From the human T2T-CHM13v2.0 reference genome, Homo sapiens: a DNA stretch of 64,000 bases. The notes below the pieces were generated by a model. It did no database searches, was not told the origin of the DNA, and saw only the letters and a list, made by a program, of their open reading frames with translations. The position numbers and the translations under genes were made by a program. Location: the NCBI RefSeq assembly GCF_009914755.1, contig NC_060934.1; one strand, written 5' to 3'. Positions 224-24,435 of the stretch are shown here, one piece after another (the stretch's first letter is position 1; every line of letters starts with the position of its first letter).

Positions 224-659
224 ACACAAAACCTGACGCTGGGGACCCAATCTCGTCCACCTGAGGTGACGGGCTTGGCTCAGTGGTTGGTCATCAAGAC
301 CCCTTCAATGCTCCAAGTCTGATCCATTATCTCGGTTTTGCAGCTTTCCGGAACAACTCAGAGTAGAGAAGCAGATAAACCTGTGTGCAGTCACAGCCCT
401 GCATAAGGGCAGGGGAGGACCCAAAATCCCAGTCACCTGGTCCCGTGGACAGCGTCTGTCTCCCCCAAGAAAAGTCCACATAAGGGGGGTGCTGAAGTTG
501 GCATCAGGAGACCTGGGGAAGAGATGGGAAAGTGTGGCTCCCTGGCAAGCACAGCGCTGCCAAACGACCTGGGACACAGCAAGACGAGAGCCACCCCTCT
601 CCATCCACACAGGATGCGCCCATCTTGGTGTTTCTGCCCCATAAGAAAAGAGTCGTGTG

Positions 660-2570
660 AACACAGGGATGCACTTTATTCCGCCACTTTTATTGAGCAA
701 CAGCCGTGGGGACCTGATTCTGCACTAAGTGCTCTACTGTGAGACATCACAGGTTGTCATTGCTAGAGGCAAGAATCTCTTACAAAGATGAAAGGGCAGA
801 ACCCAGTGCTTTTTTTAATGGTTGTTATTCCATGCAGAAACACTGACTGATCCAGAACTGGTAACTAAGGCGGTGATCAAACAGGAATGCTTTTCTTCTC
901 AGTTTAGGACGAAGACCCGCCATGACAATGGCGGGAACGCTGGAGTAAAACCTCACGGCGGCCAGCATGAAGTTTTTCGCCAGATTTGTGGCCCCACCCC
1001 CAAGTACCCACGCGGAGAGGCCTCCAGTCATACAGCACAAAGGGCATCGCCTTGGGCAGCTCAGGCTCACTCTGTTCCACACTGTCTGCGGTGGGAGGCT
1101 CGGGCCGGCCTGGGTGCATCCAGTGAGTACCACGTTCCCTTTTCCCGGCACACTGTCTCCAGGACAGGCGTGACCTGTTCTCCAGAACGGGTAGAGATGG
1201 GGTTTCATCAAGTTGGCCAGGCTGGTTTCGAACTCCTGACCTCAGATGCCCCAGAAACCACTCATCCCTGAACTAATCATGCAAAGTCCTCCAGTTTAAC
1301 TCCCTGTTGTGGGCGGGGTTCTTAAAATTTATGAAGGCAAAGACTCCTAGGCCGGCCCATGCAGTCTGAATACGCTACCGAATGCTCCACCTATGGCTTA
1401 TAATGCAGAACGACCTGTTTCTATCACTGCAGGACGGGATTGCAAGATTTTCTTATCCTGCCTTGGCTGCAGAGTCCCATTCCCGTCCAACTCAAAGCAC
1501 TGGGACAATGCTGGATGTGATAGATGGTCCATGAGTATCCGCAAAACTAAATAATAAGTGGGCGATGGTGCCCCCTGGGTGCGGGCAGCCTCTCTTACTA
1601 ATTTGATAGCTTCAAGGAGTTAGCAAACTGTAGGGTGGGTGAAGAATTCATTTGACAACCATAGAAACAGATGAAAAACAATTCCCACAGAGTCTCCAAA
1701 CAGGCCTTTGCACTGAGAATGCCGAGCCACGAGAATATACACCTTGACACACCTTCACACTGCTGTCGGTTTGAATGGCTCATTACCAAAACCTTAGTGG
1801 TACCGCCTACGTGTCCTCTAAAAGGTTTTTATCCTACATATAAACTTTTTACAAGAGTTGGAGACCTAATACTGAAGACAAATTTCCTAAGAAACTCAGT
1901 GCTACTTGTGGGGAATACAAAGCCAGGGCCTTCCCCCACAAAGACCCATAGAAAGTCCCTGAGTGACAGATGCGTGCAGGCTTGGGGCTGGGGGATGCCT
2001 TGGAAAGTGCTCCAGGAAAAGCATCCACACAGCAGCCAGCAGAGCAGCAGTCCCAGGCCACATCCCAGGCCGACCTTCCGTGGGCCCAGCCATTCCCTAT
2101 GAGCACCGAGGGCAGTCCTGGTGCCGACCCGGAGGTGGTGGCCTGCACCTGGGGCCTGTGCATCTGCGGCAGGCTGCCCCGGTGAGTGAGAATCAGCAAC
2201 AATGCCCTCAGTCCCCAGCTCTGCCAGCCTCCTCTGTGCTCCCCACGCCGTCTGTCCTGAGAGTGCCTTTGAGGATGGTCCGTAAACGAGGAAAACTGGA
2301 TGGTTGGGCCCATGCCCATTGAGAGGGTAGGTTCTGTAGAACAGCGCAGGGCCACACCCACAACTGTGACCTGAGACGCAGGCCTTCCCAACACCCTGGA
2401 AACATTATCCAGGATCCAGGAGAGAAGCCTAAACAGGATCGCAGGAAGGGACTCGAAGGAGCGTTGTTCTATCTACAGCAATCACGCTGCTTCAGAGGAA
2501 CAGGCAGAGCCCTCACCCGGGCAATGCTGGGCACAACGGGGGCAGTCACGGTCCGGACCCCACCTGCAAT
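660..2570 (-). other. ASB13: ASB13 3'UTR (~1.9 kb)
   Basis: Lies between the stop codon and the tandem poly(A) signals; the exact cleavage site is inferred. Confidence 0.8.
675..694 (-). terminator. Tandem AATAAA polyadenylation signals of ASB13
   Basis: TTTATT at 675-680 and 689-694 on +; GU/U-rich sequence follows on the minus strand (ctgtgttc...tcttttctt). Confidence 0.85.
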
Positions 2571-2698
2571 TCAGTTGTAGGAGAGGTAATCAATGAGCCG
2601 GGGCGGGATGTTTAACTTGGCAATCTTCTCCAGCCCTCGGACGCCAGTGGCCTTCCTCAAGTTCACCCTGCAGAGCTGTGACAGAGTCAGAGGTGTCT
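2571..2698 (-). CDS. ASB13: ASB13 exon 6 coding part (128 nt; SOCS box TPLTLSQLCRVNLRK...LNIPPRLIDYLSYN*)
   Basis: Acceptor tttttcAG|AG; BC-box motif LSQLCR and Cul5-box-like IPPRL; TGA at 2573-2571. Exon lengths 43+188+151+135+192+128 sum to 837 nt = 278 aa plus stop. Confidence 0.96.
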
Positions 2699-2944
2699 CT
2701 GAAAAAGGGAGCAAGGAAGGATGTGAGGTTAATTTCAGGAAGAAGCACAACACCTGCAACCGAACACAAACTCAGAGGGAATCGGAAACGCCTCCCTTTC
2801 CCCTGGAACCGGGATGTGTCCTGTAGGCCTTCTCTGGAAGGACAGCCAGGAACCCGAGGAAGGGAGCCCAGGAAATGAAGTTCGGGGCATGATGTCCACT
2901 GGGATTGCCTTTTGTGGGCTTTGGGAGTTTGTTTGGTTTTGAGG

Positions 2945-3265
<321 letters not shown>

Positions 3266-3637
3266 TTTCAAAACCATGGTTTTGGTTTTTTGAGACACGG
3301 CATTATATTTCAGCACCCAAACTTGTCATCAAACAACTAATCTGCAGCTAGGAGGCTCATCTGTCAAATGTCCAGCACAGGAGGCACAGGTCTGGTGCCC
3401 GGGCAGGTGTCGGCCACAGCTTCTGCTGCTCCACGCCACGGGCCACAGGGAACCCAGGGAGAGCTGGGGCAACAGCACAAACAGCCCCCGCAAAGTGCTT
3501 AAGGGTCTGTCCTAGCGCAGAGGACAGGAGCCAGGACTAACAGCCCAGCTCTCCGCGGAAGCCCACAGGGAGCCGGCACGTCAGGGGTCCAGGCTGAAGG
3601 CTGGAGGGGATGGGGTGCGCTCGGTGGGGTGTCTCAC

Positions 3638-3829
3638 TTTCGTAGTACTCGAAGCACTTGGCGGGAGCGCTGCTGCTCCACGTGTAGTCAGACGGCTTCT
3701 TCCCGCGGTTGTCCCGGGCGTAGATGTTGCCGCCAAACTCGATAAGCATCTCGATGAGGTCAACATTCTTGACCTTGGCCGCGTGGTGAAGGGCAGTCTC
3801 ATGAAGCTTTGCCGCATTCACGTTGGCCC
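3638..3829 (-). CDS. ASB13: ASB13 exon 5 (192 nt; ANVNAAKLHETALHHAAK...KCFEYYE)
   Basis: Acceptor ctccAG|GG; donor A|GTGAGA; ankyrin motif in ORF 3537..3821. Confidence 0.96.
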
Positions 3830-4500
3830 CTGGAGGTCAAGAGTGCAGAAGAGATTTCACCAAGAAGAGAACTTGAAGTCAGGGGGACAATCAGGTCCGT
3901 TTCGTCACACAGCACGGTGGCAGAAGCAATCCCCACCCAGAAGACAAAATCAGGACAGACTCTACCGTAGCTTTCAAAAATGTTTTTCAACATCCAAAAG
4001 CAGGAACTACTTACTGTCCCCACTCATGAGAGATAAAGGTAGGCAGCAATAATAAAGAAATAACTAGAAATAGAACCGAAAAGAAGAAAAATAAAACGAA
4101 AAATGTCCTGAGTTAAACAACCGTTCTAATGCCCTATCAATCTGCCTTCAGGGGTCCTGAGATTTCCGGAAGCTCAAACCAGAGCCACTCAAGCACTCCC
4201 GCCTGGCCTCCAGCACAGACACACACTGCTTCTTCCTCTTGCGGGCGCAGGACGGAGGCTCCAGAAATACTGGTTGAATGAAAGAATAAATGTTCCTTAA
4301 CAATGCATATTCTTTTACAAAAGGAAAACAGATAACGTACCCAAAACAGTAGGCAATTCAGAGAAGAGAGTAAGCTCTGCACTCCTCAACTTTCTCACGA
4401 TAAGAGCAGACATTCATCAAGCTGATTAAAAGTAAAGGTAAAAAAAAATTTTTTTTTAAAAAAAAGAGCAGACATTCAGAAAGATGCAAGGAATTAGTAG

Positions 4501-6912: not shown

Positions 6913-9829
6913 TCAGAGAAAAGGGGTCAACACAGGCTCATTACCAAAATCCTGCTTTCAACACAAAATAGGATTAAAGTGGATTCAGAGAACCCGTGGC
7001 CAGTGACGTGACGGGACCGCCTAAGACCTTAGCACGCCAAGACTGGCACAATCCTGGAACATAAACACAAATAGCTCAATAGGTGCTTGTTACCACAAGA
7101 GAAATTGAAAAAAAAAATTAAATTTAAAAAATTATAATTAAAAAATTTTTTAAAAATTAAACAACTATTTTAAAAAAATTTTTTAAATTGTGCCAGGGCC
7201 AGTGCTAAGAACAAAGGTGGAAGCAGGACCGTCCTCAGGGAGCCGCTTCCGAACACTCCTGGCAGAGTTCAACATTCACTGTCAGTGATCAGATTAAAAA
7301 TTACTTCACCATCATAACCGGACTTTCACCCTCCCCAGCCCTCCTCCTTTGCAAATACAATCTGGTTCCTGGACTCGCCTCACTGCCTACAAAGAACAAG
7401 AACAACGGTCTCCACGTCCCCCGTGGGGTGCAACGTGGCTCTGCCTCACAGCTCAGCTCTCAAACCGCACACGAAAGCACCTGCACTCATGTGGGCCCCG
7501 ACTGGTTCAATCCCTCTCCCCTCTCCACAGTAACTGGTTCAAATGATCCAGGCTTGAGCCGATCAGAATTTGGCAAAGTTTGGGCAAAGGGACTGGGGAG
7601 GGGTGCAGGAAAAGGGACTTTCCACTCTTCTGTTTTTCTAGAGACACGGTCCCTGGCTTTCCTTTGGTTTCCCGAGGGATCTGTGACCTGACCCCAAAAG
7701 ATCAGAATCACTACTTTTTAAAAATCTGTTTGTGAGGACGTAGGGGATGCTGTTGTTTCTCTCTCCTCTGTATGTTTGAAATTTTCCGCAATGAAAAAAT
7801 GGTTTCTAAGAAGAAGATGATGATCCATCTGCTCTCACAAGGGGTACTAGAGGAGACCACCCAAGAGTAGGATGGGAACCAGGAATCCCGCGTGGAGCTG
7901 ATGGCTGGATGCTACCCACAGCATCGAGCCAACACCAACAGTCACTGTGCGGAGGCTTCCCCAAGAAAGCCACGTTCACCTCTAACTCCTCAGGGGCATG
8001 CAAACTCCCGGGGAGAGCTGTGGGAACCCCGCTTTAGGGCGACGGTGGGCCTCACAGCTGCCCCTTCCTTTCCAGCCCCCACCCCCGACTGTGCTGCCAC
8101 CTGGTAATGTGGTGGGGGCGGGAGCAGACCTGACTTCAGCTCCAGCGTGGGTCCCGCCTAGTCCAATCCCTCTCCCCTGACCACAGTAATTAGTTCTAAT
8201 GACCCAGGCTTCAGCCCATCAGAATTTGGCAAAGTTTGGGCAAAGGGACTGGGGAGGGGTGTGTGAAAAGGGATTTTCCACTCCGCTGAAAGAGCCTCCA
8301 GAAGGCTTAAAACAGGAAACGTCTGGCGTGTAGGCCTGAAGCCACTGCAGCCCCGTGACCTTGCTCAGGCAGGCCGGAGGCTTAGGATGAAGCCAATACT
8401 GAGGAAAGCAGAATCGCAACGTTCAAAGAAACTGAGGCCTGGGTGACACCACGGAACCTCCGGTCCAGCCGCCCCTAATCCTGCTCTGCGTCTCAGCCCT
8501 GAAGTCACCTGAACTAGAAATGCCCGCCATTGTTTACCAGTGGAAGTGGCTTCCTGTTACTCGCAAAGGTGTCCAACTGACATGAAGTCCTAACTGATAC
8601 AGAAAGGATGTTTGCTTTAAACACTAAGTTGATCCCTTTCCCTACAACCACACCAAACAGAACGAAGGTAAAAATGGAACTCGTGTGTACTGAGCTCATA
8701 AAGGCTTGATATGAACGCACTGCGCTGTGTTCATAGAAACGGATCCAGCTGCCAGAGGAACGGCTCGGCTGGAAACGCTTACACCTGCTTCCAATGGAGA
8801 TACTTCTAAGACAGTGTATAAAAAAATTAAAAGTACCTCAACAACTATTCCTACACAAAACGAATCTTTTCCACTAAAAAGACTGAAAAGTGGCACATGA
8901 AAGTGAGTAAGATTCTCCAATAAAAAACTACACATAACTAAGCTCAAATGGCTGTCATCAGGGGGAATTCATGATCTTCCTGTTCCTGAACAGGTTTGTT
9001 CTTGTTGTTAAGAGAAGGGGACTTGCTATGTTTCCCAGGCTGGCTGAAACTCCCGGGCTCAAGCAATCCTCCCGCCTCAGCCTCCCAAAGTGCTGAGACT
9101 ATGGCTGTGAGCCACAGTGCCCAGCCATCCTAAACAGTTTTGTTTTTATCCTACACTACACCCAGAATTTGGATAAGATGATGAAACTAAAATTTTCCCT
9201 CAACAAAACATTTAAGTTGGGTTGATAAAAACCCTGTGCTAACAGTCACTTTGGCTAAAACTTTTGGTATAGACAGGTCCTGAGCCTAATCCTCGATTGG
9301 TTGGTCTTTTTGGTTTTGATTTTTTTCCCTCTTTGGGAATCTCAATCCTGAGTCTTTTCGAACACCCGACAATGGCCTGGATTCCAAATGCTCCATATTC
9401 TCCTAAACGCTGCCAACTCCACTTCCCATTACATCCCCTTCTCTCTTGGATTCAGGCAGCAACCTCACCAGGCAGCTGTGGGCACAGTGGCCTGTGATCT
9501 CTAGAAATAATCATTGGCATCTGTTGAGTACCTACTAGGACACACCAGGCACCGGGGAAACATCCTCAGTTCTCCCAGCAACCTGCAGCATAGATTCTTC
9601 CAGTGTTACAGATATGTAAACTGAGGCCCGAGGTCTCAGCTGGCAAGTAAGAGAGCCAGCCTCCAACCCTGGTCCCTCTGACTCCTCTACCCAGCTCTCT
9701 GCTAGGCACAGTAAATACCTGTTCAGGTAAATGCTCGTGCAAGTAAACACCTGCTCAGGTGAACAGCCTTGCAAGTATATACCCATTCAGGCAAACTTCT
9801 CAGATAAATCCATAAATACACACTCTGCA

Positions 9830-10740
9830 GGCAAACACCCACTCAGGCAAACACCCACTCAGGCAAACACCCACTCAGGTAAACACCTACTCAGGCAAAC
9901 ACCCACTCAGGTAAACACCCACGCAGGCAAACACCCACGCAGGCAAACACCCACTCAGGTAAACACCCACACAGGTAAACACCCACTCAGGTAAACAACC
10001 ACGCGGGTAAACACCCACGGGGGTAAACACCCACTCAGGTAAACACCCACGCAGGCAAACACCCACTCAGGTAAACACCCACGCAGGCAAACACCCACTC
10101 AGGTAAACACCCACTCAGGTAAACACCCACGTGGGCAAACACCCACTCAGGTAAACACCCACTCAGGCAAACACCCCCTCGGGTAAACACCCACTCAGGC
10201 AAACACCCACTCAGGTAAACACCCACGCAGGCAAACACCCACTCGGGCAAACACCCACTCGGGCAAACACCCACGCGGGCAAACACCCACTCGGGTAAAC
10301 ACCCACGCGGGCAAACACCCACTCAGGTAAACACCCACTCAGGTAAACACCCACGCAGGCAAACACCCCCTCGGGTAAACACCCACGGGGGTAAACAACC
10401 ACGCAGGTAAACACCCACGCGGGCAAACACCCACTCGGGCAAACACCCCCTCGGGTAAACACCCACGCGGGCAAACACCCCCGGGGGTAAACACCCACGC
10501 AGGTAAACACCCACACGGGCAAACACCCACTCAGGCAAAAACCCACTGGGGTAAACACCCACGCGGGCAAACACCCACTCCGGTAAACACCCACGCGGGC
10601 AAACATCCACTCCGGTAAACACCCACTCGGGTAAACACCCACTCGGGCAAACACCCACTTGGGCAAACACCCACGCAGGTAAACACCCGCTCGGGCAAAC
10701 ACCCACTCAGGTAAACACCCGCTCGGGCAAACACCCACTC
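9830..10740. repeat. 16-bp minisatellite/VNTR (consensus AAACACCCACTCAGGY), about 57 copies
   Basis: The tandem units are directly visible; degenerate units extend to about 9710. Confidence 0.97.
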
Positions 10741-24288: not shown

Positions 24289-24435
24289 AGAAGGGGGGGG
24301 GGAGGGGAGGGGAGGGGAGGGGAGGGGAGGGGAGAACAGAAGAGAAGAGAAGAGAAGAGAAGAGAAGAGAAGAGAAGAGAAGAGAAGAGAAGAGAAGAAA
24401 AGAGAAGAGAAGAGAAGAGAAGAGAAGAGAAGAGA
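24289..24435 (+). repeat. (GGGGA)n followed by (GAGAA)n polypurine tract at an Alu tail
   Basis: Directly visible. Confidence 0.95.

What the first reader, a model, noticed from the sequence alone, without database searches (positions are those of the whole stretch)
1191..1245. Exact 55-nt copy of the intron-5 Alu pasted into the ASB13 3'UTR
Seen: 1191-1245 (gtagagatggggtttcatcaagttggccaggctggtttcgaactcctgacctcag) is identical to 3151-3205, 1960 bp away in the same orientation. It carries that Alu's departures from consensus (catcaagtt for caccatgtt; ggtttcg for ggtctcg). It has no A tail, no Alu ends and no clean TSD, and a small hairpin (gttct-cc-agaac, 1177-1188) precedes it. Inference: this is a recent locally templated insertion (polymerase-theta-type repair or template switching, or possibly RNA-templated from the pre-mRNA) rather than retrotransposition. 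On the mRNA strand the fragment holds the Alu AGGTCA-nn-AGTTCG DR2 element and a B-box GTTCGAAAC, and it could pair with antisense-Alu RNAs.
Basis: partly seen in the sequence, partly recalled or inferred. Interest (0 to 1): 0.8.

Follow-up and report, generated by a model that had tools for sequence, protein, structure and literature searches.

The report
Local Alu-piece patch in ASB13 3'UTR
A 55-base piece of an old Alu repeat in an ASB13 intron was copied once into the gene's 3' untranslated region about 2 kb away, most likely as a repair patch at a DNA break, and it looks like a harmless scar of a known kind.

Summary
Window 1191-1245 is identical to 3151-3205, and 57 of 58 bases match through 1248/3208. 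In the whole T2T genome this 55-mer occurs exactly twice, both times here. Two more sites differ by 1 mismatch and 163 by 2.

The copy lies in single-copy 3'UTR sequence. Its flanks show no Alu homology. It has no A-tail and no L1 endonuclease site. It carries three rare private variants of the donor Alu.

It is therefore a one-off copy templated by the neighbouring intron-5 Alu. It is not a retrotransposition and not a chance match.

The specific mechanism is not resolved:
- At 55 nt copied from 1,960 bp away, with 0 nt microhomology on the left and at most 2 nt on the right, it does not fit typical polymerase-theta insertions.
- Capture or synthesis of a local filler patch sealed by end joining fits best.
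- An RNA (pre-mRNA) template stays possible.

"Recent" is only loosely bounded, at under about 10-25 Myr. The empty site could not be examined because no primate or pangenome data were available. Nothing points to a function. This is a new member of a known kind, of modest interest.

The parts
1191..1245 (-). The copy: a 55-nt internal piece of the Alu left arm. It is sense on the ASB13 mRNA strand, inside the annotated last exon (3'UTR), 1326 nt from the stop codon and 521 nt from the transcript end.
   Evidence: Exact identity to 3151-3205. Only 2 exact genome hits. Corresponds to positions 60-114 of the 299-nt donor element. Distances. Exon span from the hub's table.
3151..3205 (-). The donor segment inside the intron-5 Alu.
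   Evidence: It lies in continuous Alu context, ending in Alu-sense orientation just before the A-rich middle linker.
2966..3264 (-). The donor Alu: an old, near full-length dimeric element, sense in the ASB13 pre-mRNA.
   Evidence: Two Metazoa_SRP-like halves on the minus strand. It differs at 26 of 261 compared columns (10.0%, 14 of them at consensus CpG) from the majority of 23 other Alus in the window.
1246..1250 (.). Right junction, ATGCC. Either 3 more copied bases with one mismatch (ATG against GTG in the donor) or untemplated filler.
   Evidence: junction display.
1188..1190 (.). Left junction, CGG. It does not match the donor (TTA there), so it is either 0-nt microhomology or 3 filler bases.
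   Evidence: junction display.
1182..1187 (.). CCAGAA, left copy of a possible 6-bp target duplication (weak).
   Evidence: The same hexamer occurs at 1251-1256. A shared 6-mer between 12-nt flanks occurs at 2.95% of random window positions, and at 4.6% for 15-nt flanks.
1251..1256 (.). CCAGAA, right copy of the possible target duplication (weak).
1173..1192 (.). Small hairpin next to the left junction: 8 bp including one G-T pair, with a 4-nt loop.
   Evidence: The region as a whole is not more stable than shuffles (73 of 200 shuffles fold at least as well).

Best explanation
This is a single locally templated patch insertion. A break, or a stalled fork, arose in what is now the ASB13 3'UTR. 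It was mended by copying about 55-58 nt from the Alu 1,960 bp away on the same chromosome, in the same orientation. The piece was sealed in by end joining with essentially no microhomology. A few untemplated bases and a 6-bp target duplication may also be part of the event. The template was most likely DNA, either a short copied or captured piece of the neighbouring Alu or a brief template switch to it.

Shown: the identity of the donor, the isolated position of the copy, and the lack of retrotransposition marks. Inferred: the break, the polymerase or ligation pathway, and the DNA nature of the template.

The fragment is now transcribed as part of the 3'UTR. It is most likely a neutral scar.
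For: Donor identity:
- The 55-mer is exact at only two places in 3.1 Gb, both in this gene.
- The copy shares the donor's rare variants. At three of the differing columns, 22 of 23, 23 of 23 and 23 of 23 other window Alus carry the majority base instead.

Isolation:
- Flanks 1100-1190 and 1246-1340 each have one genome hit, their own place.
- Flank-to-donor alignments are at chance level: 102, 11, 43 and 176 of 300 shuffles score at least as high.
- In 264 kb around the site I examined 41 dispersed exact matches of 40 nt or more lying within 10 kb of each other. This pair is the only one with no flank homology on either side.

Not retrotransposition:
- The piece is internal to the Alu (positions 60-114 of 299).
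- There is no A-tail and no TTTT/AAAA within 15 nt of either junction.

Junction pattern: blunt junctions, 0-2 nt microhomology, 2-3 untemplated bases and occasional target duplications are the patterns described for filler DNA captured at breaks during primate evolution (PMC2567098, passages) and for class 2 templated sequence insertions (PMC5110952, parts 1-2 of the text).

Presence in mRNA: the annotated exon 670-1529 runs through the site without a gap, while a 65-bp difference in the same exon is shown as a gap. I infer from this that the reference mRNA also carries the fragment (hub's table).
Against: - The pre-insertion (empty) site was not seen. The exact limits of the insertion, any target deletion, the filler bases and the 6-bp duplication are therefore all unverified.
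- Nothing in the sequence separates a DNA template from an RNA one. Donor and target lie in one transcription unit and in the same orientation, which an RNA template from the gene's own pre-mRNA would also give.
- The left junction has no microhomology. That argues against the microhomology-primed versions (polymerase theta, MMBIR) of this same explanation.
- The background scan covered only 264 kb, so the rarity of such events is poorly measured.
Confidence: 0.6

Rival explanations
1. RNA-templated patch. The gene's own nascent pre-mRNA, which contains the intron-5 Alu in sense, or a cDNA made from it, served as the template or filler at a break in the 3'UTR. This would be an endonuclease-independent, 'non-classical Alu insertion'-like event, or RNA-templated break repair.
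For: - Donor and target lie in one transcription unit, and the copy has the orientation expected if the template-strand 3' end at the left side of the break was extended on the pre-mRNA (inference).
[quoted passage not shown] Published examples are 95 and 77 bp (PMC5402677, passages).
- Class 2 templated insertions were reported to be reduced by reverse-transcriptase inhibitors (PMC5110952).
- Transcript RNA can template break repair in human cells (PMC12065846, abstract only).
Against: - There is no complementarity between the left break end (..CGG) and the RNA just 3' of the copied stretch, and no A-run was carried over from the adjacent A-rich linker.
- There is no RNA-specific mark, such as A-to-G editing changes. 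The only nearby difference is A against G on the plus strand at 1246.
- Same orientation is expected half the time under a DNA template as well.
Confidence: 0.2
2. Canonical polymerase-theta end joining or replicative template switching (FoSTeS/MMBIR), that is, microhomology-primed copying with return to the original template.
For: - The template is nearby on the same chromosome.
- There is a possible 2-nt 'TG' microhomology next to a single mismatch at the right junction, which an error-prone polymerase could explain.
- Templated insertions from nearby sequence are a hallmark of both pathways (PMC12426944; PMC5120786).
Against: - The left junction has 0 nt microhomology.
- Polymerase-theta insertions are described as generally under 25 bp and copied from break-flanking sequence. 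This one is 55 nt from 1,960 bp away.
- No other rearrangement or copy-number change is visible around the site.
Confidence: 0.12
3. Remnant of an old independent Alu insertion in the 3'UTR, worn down by deletions to 55 nt and later made identical to the neighbouring Alu by gene conversion.
For: Alus lying close together in the same orientation can exchange short tracts (established knowledge, recalled; not looked up here).
Against: - The flanks carry no detectable Alu homology and are single-copy.
- The conversion tract would have to cover the remnant exactly end to end.
- It needs at least three events where one suffices.
Confidence: 0.04
4. Chance identity of an unrelated Alu fragment, or an assembly artefact.
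For: None found.
Against: - No other site in the genome has the exact 55-mer, and only 2 come within 1 mismatch.
- The annotated reference mRNA exon runs through the site without a gap (hub's table).
Confidence: 0.02

Closest known systems
Class 2 templated sequence insertions (TSI/TSIP; Onozawa and Aplan, PMC5110952)
   Same: A copy of an intact donor is inserted with no target-site duplication of the L1 type, no poly(A) and no polyadenylation signal. The junctions look like end joining.
   Different: - The donor here is local (1.96 kb away, same gene), not a distant region.
- At 55 nt it is shorter than the 73-414 bp reported for experimental events.
- Polymorphism was not tested.
Non-classical (endonuclease-independent) Alu insertions, as summarised in PMC5402677
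   Same: An Alu piece truncated at both ends, with no duplication, no A-tail, no L1 endonuclease site, and possible short filler bases.
   Different: That class is thought to use free Alu transcripts. Here the template is pinned to one old, neighbouring genomic Alu by its private variants, so a mobile source Alu is excluded.
Filler-DNA capture at breaks by end joining (NUMT insertions in primates, PMC2567098)
   Same: Blunt or 0-2 nt microhomology junctions, a few untemplated bases, and an occasional short target duplication.
   Different: The filler here is nuclear and local rather than mitochondrial.
Polymerase-theta templated insertions (PMC12426944)
   Same: A copied stretch of nearby DNA at a repair junction, with a possible misincorporation at the edge.
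   Different: It is much longer than the usual under-25 bp, the template is 1,960 bp away rather than in the break flanks, and there is no priming microhomology at the left junction.
Short-range template switching (four-point model, PMC7954356)
   Same: A local, replication-type copy of nearby sequence.
   Different: That model yields reverse-complement copies within tens to hundreds of nucleotides. This copy is direct and 1,960 bp away.

Membership tests
Classical Alu retrotransposition (target-primed reverse transcription) | Intact 3' end with poly(A) tail | tested here: not met
   The piece is internal, positions 60-114 of the 299-nt donor. There is no A-run at either junction.
Classical Alu retrotransposition (target-primed reverse transcription) | Direct target-site duplication abutting the element, and a TTTT/A cleavage site | tested here: not met
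   There is no TTTT/AAAA within 15 nt of either junction. The only repeat is a 6-nt CCAGAA set 3 and 5 nt away from the insert, with a background frequency of 3-5%.
Non-classical Alu insertion (endonuclease-independent) | Alu piece truncated at 5' and 3' ends, lacking duplication, A-tail and endonuclease site | tested here: met
   The feature list is taken from PMC5402677.
Non-classical Alu insertion (endonuclease-independent) | Template is Alu RNA copied by reverse transcription | not testable with these tools
   The sequence cannot tell RNA from DNA. The template sequence is that of the local old Alu, not of a source Alu.
Class 2 templated sequence insertion | Donor stays intact, and the insert lacks duplication, poly(A) and polyadenylation signal | tested here: met
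   The donor Alu is continuous. The junctions are shown.
Class 2 templated sequence insertion | Donor in a distant genomic region; insertion polymorphic in people | tested here: not met
   The donor is 1,960 bp away. Polymorphism could not be tested because no population data were available.
Polymerase-theta-mediated end joining with templated insertion | Short insert (generally under 25 bp) copied from break-flanking sequence | tested here: not met
   55 nt copied from 1,960 bp away. The criterion comes from PMC12426944.
Polymerase-theta-mediated end joining with templated insertion | Priming by microhomology at the junctions | tested here: inconclusive
   Left junction 0 nt; right junction 0 nt, or 2 nt next to a mismatch. 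Filler bases could hide it, and the empty site was not available.
FoSTeS/MMBIR template switching | Microhomology at each switch, often with other copy-number changes | tested here: inconclusive
   Junctions as above. No further rearrangement is visible in 600-4000.
Short-range template switch (four-point model) | Reverse-complement copy from within tens to hundreds of nucleotides | tested here: not met
   The copy is in direct orientation and 1,960 bp from its donor. The criterion comes from PMC7954356.
Alu-Alu gene conversion | Recipient is a pre-existing homologous Alu | tested here: not met
   The flanks show no Alu homology and are single-copy.

The most novel reading that the evidence does not exclude
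The fragment is a germline scar of RNA-templated break repair in cis. A break in the transcribed ASB13 3'UTR was patched by reverse-copying the gene's own unspliced nascent transcript at the intron-5 Alu. If so, it would be a natural, heritable example of a pathway so far shown mainly in reporters and tumours.
Probability: 0.15. Interest if true: 0.6.

Novelty: new member of a known kind. Interest (0 to 1): 0.3.

Why it matters
It is a clean case in which the donor of a short, non-retrotransposed repeat fragment can be named to the base. The donor's private variants mark the copy.

Cases like this can be used to measure how often breaks in the human germline are patched with nearby sequence, and whether DNA or RNA serves as the template.

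For ASB13 itself, the event adds 55 nt of sense Alu to the 3'UTR. No evidence of an effect was found.

Tried and rejected
- **Empty-site proxy.** I looked for a processed pseudogene or paralogue of the 3'UTR that might preserve the pre-insertion state. Both flanks have only their own genome hit, so none exists.
- **Primate or population sequences.** No tool holds them, so the empty site, the age and any polymorphism remain untested.
- **Hairpin as a cause.** The DNA fold of 1150-1290 is no more stable than shuffles (z -0.26).
- **RNA structure of the mRNA strand.** z -0.84.
- **Rfam.** The copy gives only a sub-threshold mir-1285 match (E 0.92; 21.1 bits against a gathering score of 56), which I treat as noise.
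- **Hidden Alu homology in the flanks.** None found. The best match is 1092-1109 against the reverse-complement Alu, reached by 11 of 300 shuffles among four comparisons.
- **Target-site duplication.** CCAGAA at 1182-1187 and 1251-1256 is only weakly unusual (3-5% background). I keep it as a possibility, not a finding.
- **Wider background scan.** The scan therefore covers 264 kb only. Of its 53 filtered pairs I examined 41 and dropped the 12 that lie within the tandem array at 9889-10368.
- **Literature.** A search for ASB13 + UTR + Alu found 0 papers. A search for 'Alu fragment', 'templated', 'nearby Alu' and 'insertion' listed 6 papers, none on this locus judging by title and abstract.

Full report
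**Observation**

Window 1191-1245 and 3151-3205 are identical over 55 nt in the same orientation, 1960 bp apart. The match runs to 57 of 58 nt if the next three bases are included: ATG in the copy against GTG in the donor. None of 100 dinucleotide shuffles of the window gave two matches.

**Is it more than chance among a million Alus?**

A pattern search of the whole assembly (3.1 Gb; the window is contig 10, 5,642,001-5,706,000) found 167 sites within 2 mismatches. Two are exact (both here), 2 have 1 mismatch and 163 have 2. The backwards control found none. An independent BLAST-type search gave the same ranking, with the best foreign hit at 97% over 58 nt.

Inside the window there are 22 other Alu copies of this segment. 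The best hit of 50 nt or more has 4 mismatches in 53, and one 46-nt partial hit has 2. None has CATCAAG and one has GGTTTCG.

I compared the fragment with the majority base of 23 other Alus in the window. It differs at five columns:
- Three are rare variants: 22 of 23, 23 of 23 and 23 of 23 other copies carry the majority base.
- One is a CpG decay shared with 9 of 23 copies.
- One lies in a variable column.

The copy has all of them. The 3'UTR piece was templated by this particular neighbouring Alu.

**Which is donor and which is copy**

3151-3205 sits in a continuous dimeric Alu on the minus strand. Rfam finds two SRP-like halves at 3152-3265 and 2983-3133, and one search shows the element in sense orientation with its A-rich linker and tail. 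The element is old: it differs from the window majority at 26 of 261 compared columns (10.0%, 14 at consensus CpGs; 38 gap columns were set aside).

1191-1245 is embedded in unique sequence:
- The 91 nt before it and the 95 nt after it each hit only their own place in the genome.
- Gapped local alignment of the 100-nt flanks against the donor and its 250-nt surroundings, on both strands, stays at chance level. Shuffles reach the observed score 102, 11, 43 and 176 times out of 300.

**How unusual is an isolated copy?**

The 55-mer is the longest exact non-tandem repeat in the window.

I joined the window to the next 200 kb of the chromosome, giving 264 kb. There were 60 maximal exact matches of 40 nt or more within 10 kb, and 53 after removing overlapping and low-complexity ones. 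I examined 41 of the 53, leaving out 12 that belong to the tandem array at 9889-10368. Only the ASB13 pair lacks homology in both 120-nt flanks; every other pair is part of a longer repeat-to-repeat alignment.

**Anatomy of the junctions**

- Left: ..CCAGAACGG then the insert. The donor has ..ATTTTTA before the same bases, so there is no shared base.
- Right: the insert, then ATGCCCCAGAAACC. The donor continues GTGATCTGCC. This is either 0 nt of shared sequence, or 2 nt (TG) after one mismatch.
- There is no A-run and no TTTT/AAAA within 15 nt of either junction.
- In Alu-sense orientation the piece ends exactly before the A-rich middle linker, but none of the linker's A's were carried over.

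A hexamer CCAGAA lies 3 nt before the insert (1182-1187) and 5 nt after it (1251-1256). A shared 6-mer between 12-nt flanks occurs at 2.95% of 20,000 random window positions, and at 4.6% for 15-nt flanks. This is a possible 6-bp target duplication with CGG and ATGCC as filler, but it was picked after the fact and is weak.

It extends to 8 bp in the DNA fold, yet the region is no more structured than shuffles (z -0.26).

**What kind of event**

Classical retrotransposition is excluded. The piece is internal to the Alu (positions 60-114 of 299) and has no tail, no abutting duplication and no endonuclease site.

The formal description fits two published classes of insertion attributed to double-strand-break repair:
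- Non-classical Alu insertions, with polymorphic examples of 95 and 77 bp (PMC5402677, passages).
- Class 2 templated sequence insertions (PMC5110952, first two of four parts read).

Both classes are truncated at both ends, lack duplication and A-tail, and may carry a few non-repeat bases at the edges.

The junction types seen here are blunt ends, imperfect 2-nt microhomology, 2-3 untemplated bases, and a possible short target duplication. These are also the types catalogued for mitochondrial filler DNA captured at breaks in hominoid genomes (PMC2567098, passages).

The polymerase-theta label fits less well. Those insertions are described as generally under 25 bp and copied from the sequence flanking the break, primed by minimal base pairing (PMC12426944, passages). 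Replicative template switching (FoSTeS/MMBIR) does give templated insertions from nearby sequence (PMC5120786, passages), but it also relies on microhomology, which the left junction lacks. The short-range four-point template-switch model produces reverse-complement copies within tens to hundreds of nucleotides (PMC7954356, passages), so it does not apply either.

**DNA or RNA template**

The donor Alu is sense in the ASB13 pre-mRNA and lies in the same transcription unit as the target. The copy has the orientation expected if the left break end was extended on the nascent transcript. RNA-templated break repair by transcript RNA has been reported in human cells (PMC12065846, abstract only).

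There is no RNA-specific mark, and same orientation is expected half the time with a DNA template. My odds are:
- About 0.6 for a DNA-templated patch sealed by end joining.
- About 0.2 for an RNA template.
- About 0.12 for a microhomology-primed polymerase-theta or MMBIR event.
- The rest for gene conversion of a remnant, chance, or artefact.

The umbrella claim, a one-off copy of the neighbouring Alu that is not retrotransposition, I hold at about 0.9.

**Age**

Zero differences in 55 nt across two lineages give a 95% upper bound of 22.7, 27.2 or 54.5 Myr for rates of 1.2, 1.0 or 0.5 x 10^-9 per site per year (the rates are recalled, not looked up).

A relative argument uses five donor changes before the copy and none after it in either copy. 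It puts the copy at a median 0.05-0.075 of the donor Alu's age, with a 95% upper bound of 0.22-0.30. With an Alu of this divergence being roughly 30-45 Myr old (recalled), that means under about 10-13 Myr. "Recent" is thus plausible but not shown. The event may or may not be human-specific.

**Presence in transcripts**

The hub's table shows exon 670-1529 running through the site without a gap. In the same exon a 65-bp stretch (1530-1594) is shown as an "intron" whose ends are GA..TG on the gene strand. That stretch is an alignment gap rather than a splice. I infer that the reference mRNA contains the 55 nt. This is an inference from the table, not a check of reads or cDNAs.

**Function**

On the mRNA strand the fragment does contain AGGTCA-GG-AGTTCG and GTTCGAAAC. 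These are generic Alu left-arm features (the names DR2 and B-box are recalled). The A-box part of the Alu lies outside the copied stretch. The RNA fold of the region is unremarkable (z -0.84). The mature 3'UTR holds no inverted Alu partner in 600-4000. Pairing in trans with antisense-Alu RNAs is conceivable (Staufen-type decay, recalled) but nothing here supports it. I take the fragment to be a neutral scar.

**Verdict**

The enzyme attribution, the recency and the functional hints are not. It is a tidy new example of a known class, of modest interest unless the RNA-template reading can be shown.

Noticed in passing
window 1530-1594: The 65-bp 'intron' in the annotated last exon of NM_024701.4 has GA..TG ends on the gene strand. 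It is therefore an alignment gap, meaning a 65-bp indel between this assembly and the reference mRNA. It lies 285 bp from the Alu patch. The stretch is unique in the genome and has a 2-nt 'tc' repeat at its edges.
   Followed up: partly
window 2966-3008: The donor Alu's 3' end carries about 25 extra bases compared with the other window Alus. A weak inverted repeat is present (2967-2979 against 2996-3008, 13 nt, 77%). This may be a small old template-switch scar.
   Followed up: partly
window 2950-2970 and 3277-3297: A 21-nt, 90% direct repeat of an Alu-tail-like motif (TGTCTC plus A-run on the gene strand) lies on both sides of the donor Alu (family D4). The upstream copy sits 13 nt from the Alu's 5' end, with no Alu body beside it.
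   Followed up: no
window 7562-7605 and 8218-8261: An exact 44-nt non-Alu direct repeat, 656 bp apart, in an ASB13 intron. Homology continues on the left side, so it is a local duplication.
   Followed up: no
window 9889-10368 and 24338-24398: A tandem array of a 16-nt unit (AAACACCCACTCAGGT-like), and an (AGAAG)n run.
   Followed up: no
about L033:9822-9891 and L034:604-673: Outside the window there is a 70-nt exact non-Alu direct repeat, 782 bp apart, with homology continuing on one side only.
   Followed up: no
window 1092-1109: An 18-nt stretch about 100 nt before the patch resembles the donor Alu's left arm in the opposite orientation (15 of 18 bases). Eleven of 300 shuffles reach its score, so it is probably chance.
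   Followed up: partly
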